Below the pieces are notes generated by a model that saw only the letters and a program-made list of their open reading frames with translations, ran no database searches and was not told the DNA's origin. Positions 10,526 to 52,727 of a DNA stretch of 64,000 bases are shown here, piece by piece; within the stretch, counting starts at the first letter, position 1, and each line of letters opens with the position of its first letter. The position numbers and the translations under genes were made by a program. The stretch is from Octopus sinensis (Eukaryota). The stretch covers positions 33,604,001-33,668,000 of the forward strand of contig NC_043012.1 of assembly GCF_006345805.1 (NCBI RefSeq), given 5' to 3'.

Positions 10526-11105
10526 AATCAAAATAAGCAAGAGAATGTCAAGTATTAATGCAATACGACCGTTTCAAGCGGCTCCATTTAAATTAACAAT
10601 GCAAGCATTACAGCAGTTTAAATACAATGCTGATTACGGAGTAGTAAGAAATTAAGGAATAGGAGAAACATCTGATAATACTTATTTCTAACCAGCAGCC
10701 AGTTCTGAACTGCCAACTCACAATGGTCTTTATTCTCAATAAATGCAGTCTACTAGCCTTAGATCTTTTGTTGAGGATAAGAACGTAGATAAAAGAATTA
10801 GAACTTAATTACAGTCCTATGACCCTCACTGTGTTCCATTCCATGCCACTCCAAAATTATAGTTGTTATCTTAGCTTATTCTTGCTGCAATCGTGACAAC
10901 ATTAAATTCTTTCATCCTCTAACTCTGATAAAACATTTGAGAGAAAATATATTAATATATCTTGTCTGTTGAAAATTCATATTTTTTGCAACTGAAGATG
11001 GCATTGTTTTTAAATTGATGTAATGTTTGCATTATTCAATTAAATGGAGCCGCTTGAAACGGTCGTATTGCACTAATACTCGACATCCTGTTACTTATTT
11101 TGATT
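10526..11105 (+). mobile_element. PLE-like remnant bounded by ~105-bp inverted repeats
   Basis: 10526-10630 is the imperfect reverse complement of 11001-11105; the terminus CTTATTTTGATT is shared with the elements at 58410(-) and 63935(+). Confidence 0.55.
10987..11072 (+). ncRNA. type I hammerhead-like motif with long stem II
   Basis: UGCAA [CUGAAGA] UGGC...GCC-GCUU [GAA] AC-G-GU C^ gua UUGCA; stem I has a 3-nt offset and stem III is minimal. Confidence 0.45.
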
Positions 11106-22906: not shown

Positions 22907-23774
22907 GTTTACAATGGAGCAAGATAAAATTTTATGTACAAATGCAATTATTTCGTTAGATACTAATAGGAACGCCAATCATTTCATTCTGTCTACCTCT
23001 GTCTATTCCCCCCCCCTCTCTCTCTCTAATTTTCTGTTTCTTTTTTCTTTATTTCCTTTCTTTTATCCCTTGTTTTTTTTCTCCCCCACCTCACTTGTTA
23101 CTCTCTGATTTTTTTCCTTTTCCTTTAGCTTGTAACAACTAAATCGTATAACGCATACACCAGGAGGTTTTGTGCGCGCATACGTATATATATATACATT
23201 TATATATATATTTATGTTTTGCCTATCTATGTCTGTATATGTATGTAGCCATGTTCCTACGCCTGTATGTTTAGTGTATATACGTATATTATAGATCGTT
23301 TGGCACGTGTATATATTGCTAAAAGTATATGTATTTTAGAATGAAATGTATCTTTTAATTTATTATTATTTTTGCAACTAATTATTTACCCTGGGTATTC
23401 AAGCCTTTTTCCTTCTTCATAAGCTATTTTTGATTGAAGATTAGAAACATCATCTGACCACATGTCTCTATATGTTTGCTCAATAGAATTTGGCGAACAT
23501 TGGTGTTCCGGATTGGCTGTTTGTGGACTCGTGAGCGTTCCGATAATCTGTTGCCTGTCTCGCCTATATATAATTCCTCGCAATTCGGGCATTTAATGCA
23601 GTAGATCAAATTTCTGCTTTTGCAGTTCATAACTGCATCATGTTATTTTCACAATAATATGATTTTAAACCGCAGTTTTGTTATTTCATGCAACCGGTTA
23701 TTGAAAAGGCCGTTAGTTGAAAGGTCCAACGAAACAAAACTATTTTCAAATGTGTATCTATCAAAGTAATTGTA

Positions 23775-23937
23775 TTTCTTTTCTACTCTAGGCACAAAGC
23801 CCGAAATTTTGGGGGAGGGGGCCAGTCGATTGGATCGACCCCAGTACGCAACTGGTACTTAATTTATCGACCCCCCCCCCCGAAAGGATGAAAGGCAAAG
23901 TCGATCTCGGTGGAATTTTAACTCAGAACGTAAAGAC
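23775..23937 (-). mobile_element. SINE type A variant (alternative 3' tail) inside the PLE
   Basis: CGACCCCAGTACGCAACTGGTACTTAATTTATCGAC...AAAGGATGAAAGGCAAAGTCGA...ACTCAGAACG. Confidence 0.8.
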
Positions 23938-23962
23938 AATTTTATCTTGCTCCATTGTAAAC

Positions 23963-24008
23963 AAAACTGTCCGACGAACGCGAACGTGAAACTCTGAGTA
24001 ACAGTTTT
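23963..24008 (+). ncRNA. minimal type I hammerhead, U4C core variant
   Basis: AAAACUGU [CCGACGA] ACG-cgaa-CGU [GAA] ACUC-u-GAGU A^ ACAGUUUU; perfect 8-bp stem I. Confidence 0.7.
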
Positions 24009-24413
24009 TGTGATATTTTTGCTGCTTTTTGATAAAGTATATATATATATATATATATATTGTTTCGAATTTGTGTGAATGTGTATAAAATATTATATCA
24101 GTTGAATAAAGTTAAAGCATAGTCTGGTTTTAAGGTTTTTTATTATGGTATTTTAAGAAAATTATCGCTTTCATACATAATATACTCATCAGATTTCAAA
24201 TGTGTTTAACTGACAGCTGACTTCTTGACAGCTTTAGTATCTCTTAGAACGCTCCAACCAGCTGAATTTTTAGAATACCTTTTTGACCAATCCGCATGCC
24301 CTTAAACATCATAGTTTACCAGGCATAGCGATATTCTGTAACTAGTTTATATTTATTAATCCACATCATTAACCGTTTGTTATATTATTGCTGTTATTTC
24401 CGTTCAGAACATT

Positions 24414-24790
24414 TTAATTAACCCTTTTTTCTTTTATCTTTCTATCAACCTCACTTGTGTCATATAGCTTGTGGAAAGGAAAAGTTAGAAACATCATCTG
24501 ACCACATGTCTCTATATGTTCGCTCAATAGAATTTGGCGAACATTGGTGTTCCGGATTTGCTGTCTGTGGACTCGTGAGCGTTCCGATAATCTGTTGCCT
24601 GTCTCGCCTATATATAAATCCTCGCAATTCAGGCATTTAATGCAGATCAGATTTCTGCTTTTGCAGTTCATAACTGCATTTGCGAAAATCTGTCCATTTT
24701 TGTGTTCTAATGGATCCACCCGTATGAATGTATTGATACGTTCCACATCTGTTATCATTACACTTGGATACTGTGAATGTTTTATCCTGT
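24414..24790 (-). mobile_element. second Penelope GIY-YIG endonuclease fragment
   Basis: ORF 24414-24758(-): MNCKSRNLICIKCLNCEDLYIGETGNRLSERSRVHRQQIR...HIETCG...FPFHKL; near-copy of 23424-23640. Confidence 0.85.
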
Positions 24791-25675
24791 TTGTTCATGT
24801 TGAATTTTGCCTTTGTTAATAGTTTCTTCAGGTTATGTGGTTGCCTTTTGCTTAAGATAAGTGTTTGATTAGTTATGTTTTTTATTTTTTTTCACTTAGC
24901 TTTATATAGAGAATCACACAGCACAACACAACCTGAGAACAGTTTGACATCCACCACCGACGAATGCGAGAGAGTTCTCCAGAAAAGCTAACAAGGAATC
25001 TTTAAAAATCTCCCCACCAAAGTCAACAAAGAACTTACTAGATCTACAAGCCAAACTGTAAAATTATATTATATTATTAGAAAATTAAATTGATTAGAAC
25101 TACCAGTAAAGTCATTCTTTTCCTTTTTCAAATAGATATATATATATAATAACTGTATATAATATATATCATAATATTTATTCTCCGATTCGAAGCCACA
25201 ATTTTTATATATAAACAAATGACCGAAAAATGATGAGCTAACCGCAGGCTGAATCGAACTCGCAAATCGACGCTTCCATGGCTCCTTGCGAATCTGATTA
25301 GCCAAACGCTCAACCATCAATTTCAGCCAAATTTAGTTAATATATACTTAAACTGTCTGGGATACTACGTAAATATTTTTATTTAAAAAAAAAAACGAAA
25401 GGCATGGCGAGTTACGGAGAGAAAGCTACCGTGGAAGACTCATCGTATATTAACTCTATGTAATATGTATCATAATGATATTTATCCTCCCATTTGAATA
25501 TACTGTATATGCACACGCACATATACACACAAAATATAAGCATATATATAGATACACAAACACACTCACACACATACACACACAAACACACATACGCACA
25601 CACACATATATTTCGCTTTTGTGTTCGGTCTGCAAGATTCTTTTTGTGAATTCGTGAGTTGAAGCATATTTTATT

Positions 25676-31900: not shown

Positions 31901-32390
31901 ACATCGTTATGTTTACGTTGAGAAGTGTGAAGGAGAGTGAAGAGGAGTTCCAGATAAGGGGAGGTAATAAGTGATTTCTTCCGGTGTAAGGGAGATAATC
32001 GCTTAATATTTCTTGCCTTGTTTTTGGAGTGAGTTTTGGAGTGAATCGACAGCAGATTGCATTCCCAGAATACAGAATGATACCCTTTAGTGAGCACATT
32101 GAGAAATGCGCAAAGCAACTACTACCACAATTTTTAATCTTTCCATTTTACCAATGTGCTATCGGAACACCAACGCAAATTAGACTAAACAAGGAAACAT
32201 TCTTCATTGAAAAATACAAGCCCAAACTTAACCATTCCAACATTCTTATACAGAGAAACTCACTCCAAAAAAAGGCAAGAAATATTAAGCGATTATCTCC
32301 CTTACACCGGAAGAAATCACTTATTACCTCCCCTTATCTGGAACTCTCCTTCACTCTCCTTCACACTTCTCAACGTAAACATAACGATGT

Positions 32391-43189: not shown

Positions 43190-43785
43190 CTGCATGAGCG
43201 GACGAATGGATAAGTACACGCACATATCTTGGGTCATATATATCATCATCTGAAAAAGATTTTCTAACTAGAAAGGGTATGGCCTGGTCAGCCTGTAATG
43301 ACATGCATAAGATCTGGTCATCAAATCTAAGTAGAGATTTCAAACTTAAAATCTTCAAAGCCACAGTCGAACCAATTCTACTATATGGCTCAGAAACCTG
43401 GACATTATCAAAGAAGCTTGAGAGGTGGTTGGATGGAACTTACAATTGCCTCCTTATGAGAGCTCAAAATTTCTCGTGGAAGCGTCATCCAACAAAAGTA
43501 CAAATATATGGGAAATTACCACCTGTATCATCTCTTGTGAAATGTAGAAGAGTCCAGTTTGCTGGATATTGTTGTAGAGCTGAAAACGAGGTAATTTCTA
43601 CTCTTCTCCTCTGGAAGCCACCTGCTCGCGATACCAGAGAGCACACACTCTCCTACCCTGATGTACTCTCCAGGGATACAGGCATCCAGCAACAGGACCT
43701 CCGTAATGCTATGATGGACCATGAAGTCTGGCGCAACACAGTAAATTCCATTGTCTCGATCACGGTCGGACAATGATGATGATGT
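43190..43785 (+). mobile_element. RTE-clade LINE 3' fragment
   Basis: YLGS motif at about 43225; ORF 43279-43776 KLKIFKATVEPILLYGSETWTL...LDGTY...QFAGYC.R...AMMDHEVWR; (TGA)n tail. Confidence 0.85.
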
Positions 43786-49476: not shown

Positions 49477-49677
49477 CTATGTATATATATATACACACAA
49501 ATATAATTAAAATTCAGAAAATGGAGATGTTGCATTAATGCAATTTATTAACTGCGAAAATTCAACATATTCTCTTACAGCTGTTTCGTAATGAACCAGT
49601 AATTCATTGGATATTTTTATCCCCCTTAATGAAACTATTTTAACCTGTCTCTCCCCCCTCTCTCTCTCTCTCTCCCT

Positions 49678-49743
<66 letters not shown>

Positions 49744-49876
49744 TTACATTATATAGAGGGTACTATTATTCATAGGTACCGCACGCTAGGAGGGACCCTT
49801 GCAGTCAAAACTACTAAAATAAACAAATTGTACCGAATGCAAAACTTCAAAGCAAGTCATTTAAAAACAGAATTTA

Positions 49877-49940
49877 GTTACATATCAGCTGTGATTTCGC
49901 AATCAATGCAGAATATGCATTCTATGCTCTTCAGTGTAAC
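49877..49940 (-). ncRNA. type I hammerhead ribozyme, canonical core, inverted copy
   Basis: Reverse complement of 50556-50619. Confidence 0.8.
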
Positions 49941-50555
49941 GAACTCAAGACATGTAAGGAAAAAACACAATATAGCATACCTAACAGCCAACCGTAGAAT
50001 TCTTCGTAGCATGTACGAATGTTTATCTTTACATATCTATGAAAATGGCGGGCTTATTCGCAATGTATTTCGGTAACAATTTGCCTATTCGGAACAGAAA
50101 TTCAGTATTGAACTATTCCGGTGAAAAATATGAATTCAAAATTAAGGATAAAATCTTTATAAGATATTATCAGTAGTTTATTTTAGTAGTTTTGACTGCA
50201 AGAGTCCCTCCTAGCGTGCGGTACCTATGAATAATAGTACCCTCTATATAATAGAAATAAATATTTTCAAAGTGGAAAAAATTACAGATTTTTTCTCTTA
50301 CGAGGTTTTTCACGCTAACTACTGATAATATCTTATAAAGATTTTATCCTTAATTTTAAATTTATATTTTTCACCGGAATAGTTCAATACTGAATTTTTG
50401 TTCCGAGTAGGCAAATTGCTACCGAAATGCATTGCGAATAAGCCCGCCATTTTCATAGATATGTAAAGATAAACATTCGTACATGCTACGACGAATTCTA
50501 CGGTTGGCTGTTGGGTATGCTATATTGTGTTTTTTTCCTTACATGTCTTGAGTTC

Positions 50556-50619
50556 GTTACACTGAAGAGCATAGAATGCATATTCTGCATTGATTGCGAA
50601 ATCACAGCTGATATGTAAC
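50556..50619 (+). ncRNA. type I hammerhead ribozyme, canonical core
   Basis: GUUACA [CUGAAGA] GC...AAUGCA-uauuc-UGCAUU...GC [GAA] AUCA-cagc-UGAU A^ UGUAAC; perfect 6-bp stem I, 4-bp stem III, AUA cleavage triplet. Confidence 0.8.
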
Positions 50620-51017
50620 TAAATTCTGTTTTTAAATGACTTGCTTTGAAGTTTTGCATTCGGTACAATTTGTTTATTTTAGTAGTTTTGACTGCAAAAG
50701 TCCCTCCTAGCGTGCGGTACCTATGAATAATAGCACCCTCTATATAATATAAATAAACATTTTCAAAGTGGAAAAATTTACAAATTTTTTCTCTTACGAG
50801 GTTTTTCGCGCTAACTACTGATAATTTCTTATAAAGATTTTATCCTTAATTTTAAATTTATATATATATATATAATATATATATATATATAATATATATA
50901 TATTATATATATATAGATATATATATATATAATATATATATATATATATAATATATATATATATAATATATATATATATATAATATAATATAATATAATA
51001 TAATATAATATAATATA

Positions 51018-52082
51018 CTAGCAGTATAGGCTGGCTTTGCTCGGGATTAAGTTAGGATTATTAAGCTAATCAAGTTCTTTATTTCAAACCAAACTAAGTA
51101 ACATCGACGTCAAATTTGGGTGAAGTCCATTGAAATTGGTAAACTTTTGGCTGAAAATGAGTTGCAGAAAACTTGATTGGGTAATCCCATAAGGAATCGG
51201 TTTATCTATTTTTTTCCACTCATCGACTTTCTTTTTCGTTTTTGGAGAACTTAAAGCACTCAAAGATCCCATGAGTTCTTAGTAATGCTGGCATTAAATT
51301 TGAACAAAATACATCATAATTGGTGAAAGTTATGGTTGAAAATAGGGTGTAGCCAATTTCATTAGGAAATCCTATAAGGAATCGGTTTATCGATTTCTTT
51401 TTTATCATGATTAAATGGAAAACGCCATAAGGAATCAGCTTATTGATCTTTCACACCAAATAGGACTTAACCGAACACAATATTGCTGATTCAAAAACAT
51501 CTATATTTATACTTTAAAGTTGGTTTTCACACCCAACCCAGTTCTGCCGAATCAGTGTCCCGACGGGTTGCACATGCTAGCCCTTTGAAAACACCATCCC
51601 ATCATCTAACCCCACTTTTGCCCATGGGTTGAGAACCCTTCCAGCAAGGAAAATAGAATGCCCAACAGGGATCCCGATCCTCTGTGTCAAAAGCGGTTAT
51701 GTTCAAATCACAACTAAGTCTTAAGTATATATATATATATGGGCAACACACACACATACACGCACGTACGTACGTAAACCTATTGCATACATGTTCGTGT
51801 GTGTTGCCCGTATTTCAACAAAACATTTTTCCTCGATGGAAAAAGAAACAACAAAAGTCTTACTCGTCGCTAGGAGGGGACTTAACTCTTATTTGTAAAC
51901 AATGGTGATTTCTTCGACTTGAAAATTGTTAAAAGTTTTGGTTGAAAATTTATTTTTACTCCTATTCGCTGGTGCCTCTGGGGGAAATAAGTTGACGAAA
52001 ATACAGCTGGATCATGACGAATGTCCTCCTAAAATTGGAGCGACAAGCGTGCTAATTTGTGGACGTGCATTAATTACATTCA

Positions 52083-52173: not shown

Positions 52174-52727
52174 AGTGTTTGCGCTAAGCAATGTTTAGGC
52201 ATGAGCAGAATTAGGTAAGTTGAAATATGTTTGTCACATATTTTAACTGCTAAAAGGCAAATTTATTGCAGATACCTTGGAGAAAGTATCTCTCTTATGG
52301 TAAAAAGGTGTGAAAACACCCGGTTCATTCAGTGTCGCCATCTATTAGGAATCTCAGACGAATTTCAATTTACCTAATTTTGTCATGCTTAAACTGTACT
52401 TAGCACTAACACTTTGCTATTTTCCCTCGGTCGGGCGATCTACTTGCGCAAGTCAGTCAACGTGTTGACTGAATTATGCATAAAGCTACGGCTTTATAAG
52501 TTCGTTCAGAGTCGCCTCTCTTAGGTACATCTCATTGACAAGAGACAAGAAGTTGAAACATCGGTGTTTGAAATTCCAAATAGATTGCGACACTAAAACG
52601 AACCAGGTGTTTTCACACCTTTTTACCATAAGAGAGATATATTATCCGCGGTAGCTGCAACGTATTTACCTTTTCGTAGTTGAAATATGTGACAAACATA
52701 TTTCAACTTAACCTAATTCTGCTCAAT
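52174..52727. mobile_element. foldback or MITE-like element with nested inverted repeats
   Basis: About 52202-52368 pairs with 52553-52725, and about 52174-52223 also pairs with 52363-52412. Confidence 0.6.

What the first reader, a model, noticed from the sequence alone, without database searches (positions are those of the whole stretch)
49748..50863. Candidate retrozyme: a 496-bp non-coding unit with an intact hammerhead, in inverted plus tandem copies inside (TA)n
Seen: a unit repeats directly with period 496 (starts at 50176 and 50672, ending near 50863), preceded by a ~430-bp inverted copy (49748-50178). There are two canonical type I hammerheads, at 50556-50619(+) and 49877-49940(-), and no recognisable RT or endonuclease coding. 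Established: Penelope-like elements carry hammerheads in pseudo-LTRs and often show inverted and partial-tandem layouts; metazoan non-LTR retrozymes are hammerhead-containing tandem repeats that yield circular RNAs. Inference: a greater-than-unit-length copy is what reverse transcription around a ~496-nt circular RNA would leave. The copies differ at scattered positions, while the two ribozymes look identical by eye. This locus has only one hammerhead per strand, so it could not release a monomer by itself.
Basis: partly seen in the sequence, partly recalled or inferred. Interest (0 to 1): 0.75.

Follow-up and report, generated by a model that had tools for sequence, protein, structure and literature searches.

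The report
Two-armed hammerhead retrozyme, Penelope footprint
This is one of at least a hundred scattered copies of a 496-base non-coding repeat with a hammerhead ribozyme motif that sits in TA microsatellites, often as two back-to-back arms ending at two fixed sites, one each; it is likely a new member of the known animal retrozymes, likely pasted in by a Penelope-type retrotransposon enzyme that copies one, probably circular, RNA onto both cut DNA ends.

Summary
In detail: a 496-bp direct repeat, a 438-bp inverted arm, two identical type I hammerhead motifs, no ORF, inside (TA)n. The unit is a dispersed family (127 and 242 exact matches to two short words in the 2.7-Gb genome). Arms are 5'-truncated and end at two fixed sites, A and B, about 103 nt apart, not at variable permutation points. 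All 47 head-to-head insertions with both ends at these sites pair one A with one B; 13 more have an unclassified end. In 17 of 47 neither arm can be a fold-back copy of the other. Arms of one insertion share rare variants, and 18 of 20 unselected arms run through the cleavage site. This is the Penelope-like-element 'tail' signature and fits two-ended priming on one uncut or circular RNA. Hammerhead stems covary in a sister family; helix III looks dimer-dependent, and this copy carries a variant predicted to weaken it. No autonomous partner was found in 84 Penelope-type loci. Cleavage and circular RNA are untested. Verdict: new member of the known non-LTR retrozymes. This scan has already noted the same one-A-one-B pattern in other families of this and other genomes.

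The parts
49677..49740 (.). Left half of the (TA)n target microsatellite
   Evidence: TRF array 49677-49755; sequence
49741..50178 (-). Inverted arm: unit positions 142-496 then 1 to about 84; its 3' end (left) is at fixed site A; exact boundary 49736-49753
   Evidence: site A is one of two family-wide ends
49877..49940 (-). Type I hammerhead motif of the inverted arm; predicted cut between 49883 and 49882
50176..50178 (.). Head-to-head junction of the two arms, 3-nt overlap (microhomology)
   Evidence: 24 of 47 family junctions overlap by 1-5 nt
50176..50671 (+). Full 496-nt unit of the direct arm, 32.7% G+C, non-coding
50556..50619 (+). Type I hammerhead motif: 6-bp stem I, core, stem II, helix III at 50601-50612, predicted cut 3' of 50613; two departures from the family majority (50559 and 50608), both shared with the inverted arm
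50672..50863 (+). Partial second unit (positions 1-192); passes site A near 50749-50760 and ends at fixed site B near 50856-50863; the A-to-B stretch is the ~103-nt 'tail'
50708..50813 (+). Predicted 7-bp helix (50708-50714 with 50807-50813) enclosing site A; conserved in the sister family but without two-sided changes; candidate recognition element (inferred)
50864..51017 (.). Right half of the (TA)n target microsatellite
   Evidence: TRF array 50859-51017

Best explanation
This is one insertion of a dispersed, protein-free 496-nt hammerhead repeat family, likely a non-LTR retrozyme that is likely mobilised in trans by a Penelope-like element (PLE) enzyme. Shown by sequence: hundreds of copies, (TA)n targets, two fixed 3' ends (A and B), variable 5' ends, head-to-head arms that pair A with B, tandem continuation with no ORF, and covarying hammerhead stems. 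Inferred cycle: (1) a copy with two same-strand hammerheads is transcribed; (2) the two ribozymes, probably acting as a double hammerhead through the self-complementary helix III, cut out a monomer that a host ligase would circularise; (3) a PLE RT/GIY-YIG protein, possibly a dimer, cuts both strands of a (TA)n and primes one cDNA from each end, one at site A and one at site B of the same RNA; (4) each cDNA runs a variable distance, through the cleavage site and sometimes past one lap; (5) the two cDNA ends are joined head-to-head by microhomology-type end joining. This copy is predicted to be a dead end: one hammerhead per strand, arms that would fold on each other in a read-through transcript, and a weakened helix III.
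For: Copy number: 127 exact hits for a 22-nt hammerhead word and 242 for a 24-nt word near site A, controls 0; roughly 220 and 360 copies after correcting for 36/62 and 62/92 exact carriers. Fixed ends: 85 A, 80 B, 21 other among 186 unique arms; 138 of 165 A/B arms run into TA. Pairing: 47 A+B, 0 A+A, 0 B+B among 60 composites, 13 with an unclassified end (2^-47 is about 7e-15 if ends were independent and equally likely). Sister family (458-nt unit, about 73% identical): 24 A+B of 30. Not fold-back: in 17 of 47 neither arm is contained in the other. One template: at 21 marker sites the two arms disagree in 14 of 203 comparisons (6.9%; resampled null 37.6 +/- 5.2%), tandem copies in 23 of 235 (9.8%; null 39.5 +/- 3.8%); 25 rare variants are shared within 16 of 63 loci. 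Uncut or circular template: 18 of 20 unselected arms read through the cleavage site; no fixed difference between terminal and upstream units at 186 sites, lowest p 0.042; arms up to 1007 nt here, 2.3 and 3.3 kb in the sister family. Ribozyme under selection: stems I and II change in compensating fashion among subfamilies, 141 of 164 cores keep all three stems; the hammerhead is the least variable part of the unit, 1.3% vs 2.4-7.0%. Helix III is the same in 130 of 164 cores, +0.4 kcal/mol as hairpin, -11.2 as in-register duplex. Intact RT + GIY-YIG ORFs exist in the genome. PLE literature: one-ended tail and inverted 5'-truncated copy (PMC8557442, PMC3846280); two RT start sites, both strands extended, AT-rich target, predicted dimer (PMC11167929).
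Against: No autonomous partner: profiles of the 3' region hit none of the 3' flanks of 84 PLE-ORF loci as a pLTR (only 150 of 5029 GIY-YIG candidates were scored). One true B+B composite in the sister family (L210), and 13 of 60 composites have an unclassified end, at least one of which (L172) could be B+B. The tail is ~103 nt, longer than the 30-40 bp in print. The hammerhead fold is not the dominant predicted fold, alone or in context, and Rfam does not detect it. Eight of nine predicted Xenopus retrozyme dimers did not cleave in vitro (10.64898/2026.07.22.740005). In PMC11167929 start sites did not differ between strands and ribozyme cleavage was not needed for insertion. 5' ends of the two arms lie within 12 nt in 6 of 47 (2.4 expected), so some fold-back may occur. 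Gene conversion between neighbouring arms could produce part of the shared variants. An uncut multimeric transcript explains read-through as well as a circle does.
Confidence: 0.72

Rival explanations
1. Same non-autonomous PLE-mobilised element, but the template is a linear, uncleaved read-through transcript of tandem copies; no circle is needed and the hammerhead is a passenger or acts at another step.
For: Unprocessed RNA was the dominant insertion substrate of a PLE in vitro (PMC11167929, parts 1-2). Read-through of the cleavage site is expected. Long arrays exist in the sister family. The active fold is poorly populated in predictions.
Against: Repeated 5' truncation would shorten arms each generation unless long masters exist; no arm above 1007 nt or with three hammerheads was seen for this family among 186 arms or the 100 listed of 127 hammerhead hits. 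No fixed difference between terminal and upstream units. Locus-private variants are shared by tandem copies. The hammerhead is conserved with covariation.
Confidence: 0.3
2. The unit is the pseudo-LTR of an autonomous PLE whose ORF-bearing copies were not sampled; the loci seen are its truncated ends.
For: Tandem/inverted layout, tail and TA target are those of PLEs (PMC8557442, PMC3846280). Retrozymes derive from pLTRs in Xenopus (10.64898/2026.07.22.740005). Genome searches scored only the best 40 of about 2000 candidates.
Against: Wherever arms extend upstream of unit position 1 they continue into position 496, for up to two units. No PLE protein match adjoins an arm in pLTR position. No profile hit downstream of 84 PLE loci.
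Confidence: 0.08
3. The inverted arm arises by fold-back self-priming of one cDNA, or by DNA-level duplication and gene conversion after insertion, rather than by a second priming on RNA.
For: Self-priming was proposed for PLE inverted ends (PMC3846280, passages). 6 of 47 junctions are near-palindromic. Shared variants between arms are expected under copying.
Against: In 17 of 47 composites neither arm lies within the other. Both outer ends are fixed sites abutting TA. Arms have since diverged 2.7-3.3% at other sites, so conversion is not ongoing.
Confidence: 0.12

Closest known systems
Metazoan non-LTR retrozymes (Cervera and de la Pena 2020, PMC7229834: abstract, sections 13, 14, 15, 17 read; Li, Clavereau and Pollet 2026, 10.64898/2026.07.22.740005: parts 1-3 of 5 read)
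   Same: Short, low-GC, non-coding tandem unit with one type I hammerhead per unit; monomers, dimers and a few longer arrays; co-occurs with PLEs; dimer-acting hammerheads are described for axolotl.
   Different: Unit of 496 nt is above the 170-450 nt of the first paper, within the 51-972 of the second. Fixed A/B ends, head-to-head arms and (TA)n targeting are not described in the parts read ('inverted', 'target site', 'microsatellite', 'octopus' occur 0 times in PMC7229834). Cleavage and circles are shown there, not here. No pLTR homologue found here.
Endonuclease-bearing Penelope-like elements (PMC8557442 and PMC3846280: passages; PMC11167929: parts 1-2 of 4 read)
   Same: 5'-truncated partial tandems, adjacent inverted 5'-truncated copy, a tail at one end only, two RT start sites downstream of the hammerhead, AT-rich or (TA)n targets.
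   Different: No ORF; the whole element is the repeat. Tail is ~103 nt (122 in the sister family) rather than 30-40 bp. Both start sites are TA-like and could pair with the target primer, whereas PAc starts without homology. A strict one-A-one-B count was not seen in the passages read.
Non-autonomous Chlamys PLEs such as MRC1 (PMC8557442, passage)
   Same: Non-autonomous, head-to-tail multicopy insertions moved by a PLE.
   Different: Those generally resemble their autonomous partner at the 3' end and their clade lacks canonical hammerheads; here no partner was found and a hammerhead is conserved.

Membership tests
Non-LTR retrozyme | Short unit in tandem, dispersed in the genome | tested here: met
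   Period 496; unit position 496 precedes position 1 in long arms; 127 and 242 exact word hits
Non-LTR retrozyme | Type I hammerhead in each unit | tested here: met
   Core and three stems present; stems covary across subfamilies; not detected by Rfam
Non-LTR retrozyme | No protein-coding capacity; G+C below 45-50% | tested here: met
   Longest stop-free frames 58 and 113 aa; 32.7% G+C
Non-LTR retrozyme | Two consecutive units with complete hammerheads ('active' in Li et al.) | tested here: met
   Met by the family: 11 of 160 arms. Not met by this locus, which has one per strand
Non-LTR retrozyme | Self-cleavage of the RNA | not testable with these tools
   Only folding predictions
Non-LTR retrozyme | Monomeric linear and circular RNA in tissue | not testable with these tools
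   Only contigs of runs not on record as RNA; genomic evidence for a circle is indirect
Non-LTR retrozyme | Co-occurrence with autonomous PLEs | tested here: met
   Intact 775-781 aa RT + GIY-YIG ORFs in G000
Non-LTR retrozyme | Sequence homology to a PLE pseudo-LTR (seen for 21 PLE matches among 57 Xenopus families) | tested here: inconclusive
   None in 84 PLE loci; 150 of 5029 candidates scored
Non-LTR retrozyme | Absence of PBS and polypurine tract | not tested
   No search for these motifs was run
Autonomous Penelope-like element | ORF with RT and GIY-YIG endonuclease | tested here: not met
   No ORF in the unit or next to any arm
Autonomous Penelope-like element | Partial tandem plus inverted 5'-truncated copy, tail at one end | tested here: met
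   47 of 47 classifiable composites A+B; tail ~103 nt
Autonomous Penelope-like element | AT-rich or microsatellite target | tested here: met
   138 of 165 A/B arms run into TA
Rfam hammerhead families | Covariance-model match | tested here: not met
   0 matches at gathering score; no hammerhead among 4 matches at E <= 10

The most novel reading that the evidence does not exclude
Each insertion records one circular RNA molecule copied twice at once by an asymmetric PLE enzyme dimer: one subunit always starts at site A, the other at site B, one on each cut target strand, and both can roll past a full lap. The circle is made by a double hammerhead that works only when two units are present, which would make dimeric copies the sources and leave the monomer circle uncut. 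This would explain the inverted ends and one-sided tail of Penelope-like elements in general, and tie retrozyme circles directly to PLE retrotransposition.
Probability: 0.4. Interest if true: 0.72.

Novelty: new member of a known kind. Interest (0 to 1): 0.5.

Why it matters
The class is known, and a 2026 preprint already ties animal retrozymes to Penelope-like elements. The value here is mechanistic. How PLEs build their inverted ends and one-sided tail is open: PMC3846280 proposes self-priming, PMC8557442 endonuclease resolution, and PMC11167929 leaves later steps unvalidated. A short, young, ORF-free family with many scorable insertions gives a sharp rule (one A, one B; two overlapping arms from one template) and a ready RNA substrate for the existing in vitro PLE assay. 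It would also test whether retrozyme circles are real transposition templates.

Tried and rejected
Expression: no RNA holder listed; all runs are contigs guessed to be RNA. Four were laid: 50-75 contigs each, from two organism labels; this says nothing on transcription or circularity, and a tandem junction reads the same as a circle junction. Partner search: GIY-YIG family search, 12 long-ORF loci, 40 further loci and PLE fragments near element loci gave no PLE with a related 3' region; the element copies in L133 and L266 lie 1.9 and 3.6 kb from a PLE fragment as separate insertions. RNA editing (lead from e1-8822049): only 2 of 25 shared rare variants are A>G; not supported in this family. 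Pile-up of 5' ends at the cleavage site, expected from a cut linear monomer: 2 of 20; not seen. Single diverged master dimer: no site differs between terminal and upstream units. Covariation downstream of the hammerhead: 22 predicted pairs, only 3 with two-sided changes, covariation term +0.39; the A-enclosing helix is conserved but not shown by covariation; the window's 250-nt segment folds no better than shuffles (z -0.37), the sister family's does (z -3.74). Circular-monomer folding: -119.3 vs -91.7 +/- 7.1 for the window unit, only 1.3-2.8 s.d. below shuffles for four other monomers with a cruder shuffle; weak. Target-site duplications cannot be read inside (TA)n. One search had one row with wrong coordinates and was not used. 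Search by sequence among earlier findings: nothing.

Full report
Observation. 50176-50367 repeats at 50672-50863 with period 496 and 8 differences in 192 nt; 49741-50178 is an inverted copy of 50317-50755 with 12 mismatches in 438 nt; the two arms meet head-to-head with a 3-nt overlap; (TA)n lies on both sides. A strict hammerhead scan of the window returns only 50556-50619(+) and 49877-49940(-), letter-identical. Rfam does not detect them. The unit is 32.7% G+C with no frame above 58 aa on the ribozyme strand.

Family. The window lies in a 2.72-Gb genome, G000; earlier AI notes call it an octopus, which I did not test. A search with the unit scored 40 of 2041 candidates and gave 134 matches. 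Exact words gave 127 hits for the hammerhead and 242 near site A, reversed controls 0. Correcting for the share of sampled copies with the exact word (36/62; 62/92 for a word shifted by one base) gives roughly 220 and 360, lower bounds because the sample favours close copies. Copies differ from the majority by about 3%. In every long arm examined, position 1 is preceded by position 496: the element is the tandem itself, with no ORF.

Fixed ends. Read on the ribozyme strand, arms have variable 5' ends and two fixed 3' ends, near unit position 89 (A) and 192 (B), both in TA-like sequence. Of 186 unique arms from 207 overlapping locus records, 85 end at A, 80 at B, 21 elsewhere; 138 of the 165 run into TA. 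Most loci were chosen by whole-unit or hammerhead matches, so arm lengths are biased upward; among 32 arms chosen only by the site-A word the median is 240 nt and 5 exceed one unit.

One A, one B. Of 60 unique head-to-head composites, 47 are A+B, none A+A or B+B, and 13 have an end at neither site. Several of the 13 reach A or B after an internal deletion; L172 could be B+B. This window is A (inverted arm) plus B (direct arm). A sister family found in L088 (458-nt unit, about 73% identical over the 3' region) gives 24 A+B of 30, 3 unclassified and 3 same-type calls: L210 is a true B+B, L223 continues to site A after a jump, and L262 is a diverged subfamily mapped to the wrong reference.

Two cDNAs, one template. 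In 17 of 47 composites neither arm lies within the other, so one cannot be a fold-back copy of the other; 5' ends are within 12 nt in 6 of 47 against 2.4 expected. Junctions overlap by 1-5 nt in 24, by 9-20 nt in 3, are blunt in 3 and carry 1-37 added nt in 17, as in microhomology-type end joining (recalled). At 21 subfamily marker sites the two arms disagree in 14 of 203 comparisons against 37.6 +/- 5.2% for copies from other loci; tandem copies disagree in 23 of 235 against 39.5 +/- 3.8% (100 resamplings). Twenty-five rare variants are shared within 16 of 63 loci, two whole-insertion duplications left out; 252 rare variants are unshared. Gene conversion could add to the sharing but the arms have since diverged 2.7-3.3%.

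Circle or uncut RNA. A cut linear monomer would stop arms at the cleavage site; 18 of 20 unselected arms that reach it pass it. Eleven of 160 arms hold two whole hammerheads, the longest 1007 nt. No site differs between terminal and upstream units (186 tested, lowest p 0.042), which argues against one diverged master dimer. In the sister family one arm has five units 99% alike with five hammerheads, and another has about seven units alternating 459 and 485 nt. These fit rolling copying of a circle, but an uncut multimer is not excluded.

Ribozyme. Among 164 distinct cores of both families, stem I and stem II take several sequences that keep pairing, and 141 keep all three stems. The hammerhead is the least variable part of the unit, 1.3% against 2.4-7.0%. 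Helix III is the same 12-mer in 130 of 164, with five self-complementary bases on each side of a 2-nt centre: +0.4 kcal/mol as a hairpin, -11.2 as an in-register duplex of two copies. That is the layout expected of a double hammerhead; dimer-dependent cleavage is shown for axolotl retrozymes (PMC7229834, section 15). This locus has C at 50608 where the family has G, in both arms and nowhere else in the sample, which drops the in-register duplex to -2.4. The hammerhead fold is within 0.3 kcal/mol of the free minimum in isolation here but has near-zero predicted probability in context, and a transcript across the whole insertion would pair the two arms.

Partner. G000 holds many GIY-YIG elements, some with intact 775-781 aa RT + GIY-YIG ORFs (the RT match is just under Pfam's cut-off). 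One such family has a minimal hammerhead about 500 nt after the ORF and ends in TA 138-170 nt after it, in 6 loci, a similar geometry. No PLE among 84 loci has a 3' region related in sequence to this unit; only 150 of 5029 candidates were scored, so the partner is unidentified, not excluded.

Comparison with what is known. Non-LTR retrozymes are tandem, low-GC, non-coding units with type I hammerheads, expressed as circles, with PLEs the proposed mobiliser (PMC7229834: abstract and sections 13-15, 17); a 2026 preprint derives them from PLE pLTRs (10.64898/2026.07.22.740005, parts 1-3 of 5). PLE insertions show partial tandems, an inverted 5'-truncated copy and a 30-40-bp tail often at one end (PMC8557442 and PMC3846280, passages). 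A purified PLE cuts and extends both strands of AT-rich DNA from two internal start sites that define the tail, and is predicted to be a dimer (PMC11167929, parts 1-2 of 4). Seven literature searches showed no cephalopod retrozyme and no count of A/B pairing; an octopus repeat annotation has 0 occurrences of 'ribozyme' (PMC13282606, passages). The library lacks most subscription papers, and I saw no supplements; those of PMC7229834 and the preprint may bear on this.

Earlier scan notes. I had reached the A+B reading before looking (note). The scan has reported the same pattern for other units in this and other genomes; these are AI notes, not independent support, but they show the pattern is not peculiar to this family.

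Verdict. A real, young, non-autonomous hammerhead retroelement; a new member of a known kind. Rough odds by step: retrozyme-type non-autonomous PLE passenger 0.88; two-ended priming at A and B 0.75; circular template 0.55; dimer-dependent ribozyme 0.55. Interest 0.5: the class is known, but the footprint makes an open question about PLE insertion directly testable.

Noticed in passing
window 23436-24876 (-), hammerhead core near 24192 (-): Truncated Penelope-type RT/GIY-YIG fragments (66-69% to the L063 ORF) followed by a minimal hammerhead motif and, about 110 nt further, (TA)n: an ordinary PLE 3' end, unrelated in sequence to the 496-nt unit. Another GIY-YIG fragment lies at 32035-32232 (+).
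   Followed up: partly
window 10992 (+), 58528 (-), 8548 (-), 23971 (+): Further hammerhead-like cores from a relaxed scan; those at 10992 and 58528 have long stem II regions and 6-nt helix III segments and look related to each other.
   Followed up: no
window 52190-52725: About 530-bp element with imperfect inverted arms (52216-52329 with 52597-52710, 87%) ending in (TA)n; may be another head-to-head insertion or a MITE.
   Followed up: no
window 51017-51730: Element starting right after the right-hand (TA)n, with internal 185-bp repeats and ending in TA; similar starts sit beside element copies in L130 and L164. Helitron-like by recall, untested.
   Followed up: no
L267:1637-5013 (G000:C3:82266136-82269512): Sister-family arm of about seven units alternating 459 and 485 nt; two of the long units are identical in aligned columns. 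Could record laps around a two-unit circle or a later local duplication.
   Followed up: partly
L270:4108-7001: Sister-family composite with a five-unit arm (five hammerheads, units 99% alike) ending at site B, head-to-head with a second arm that runs off the fetched stretch.
   Followed up: partly
L067:6629(-)/7129(+) and L068:6762(-)/7262(+): Another hammerhead family in inverted pairs, 2.1-2.6 kb downstream of intact 781-aa PLE ORFs, at two loci 27 kb apart.
   Followed up: no
L065:1174-2610 and L069:5003-6439: A 479-aa open frame directly upstream of, and overlapping, the 781-aa RT + GIY-YIG ORF; PLEs are described as single-ORF in the papers read.
   Followed up: no
window 43198-43776 (+): 192-aa stop-free frame resembling the end of a LINE-type ORF by eye; only a sub-threshold DUF6451 match.
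   Followed up: no
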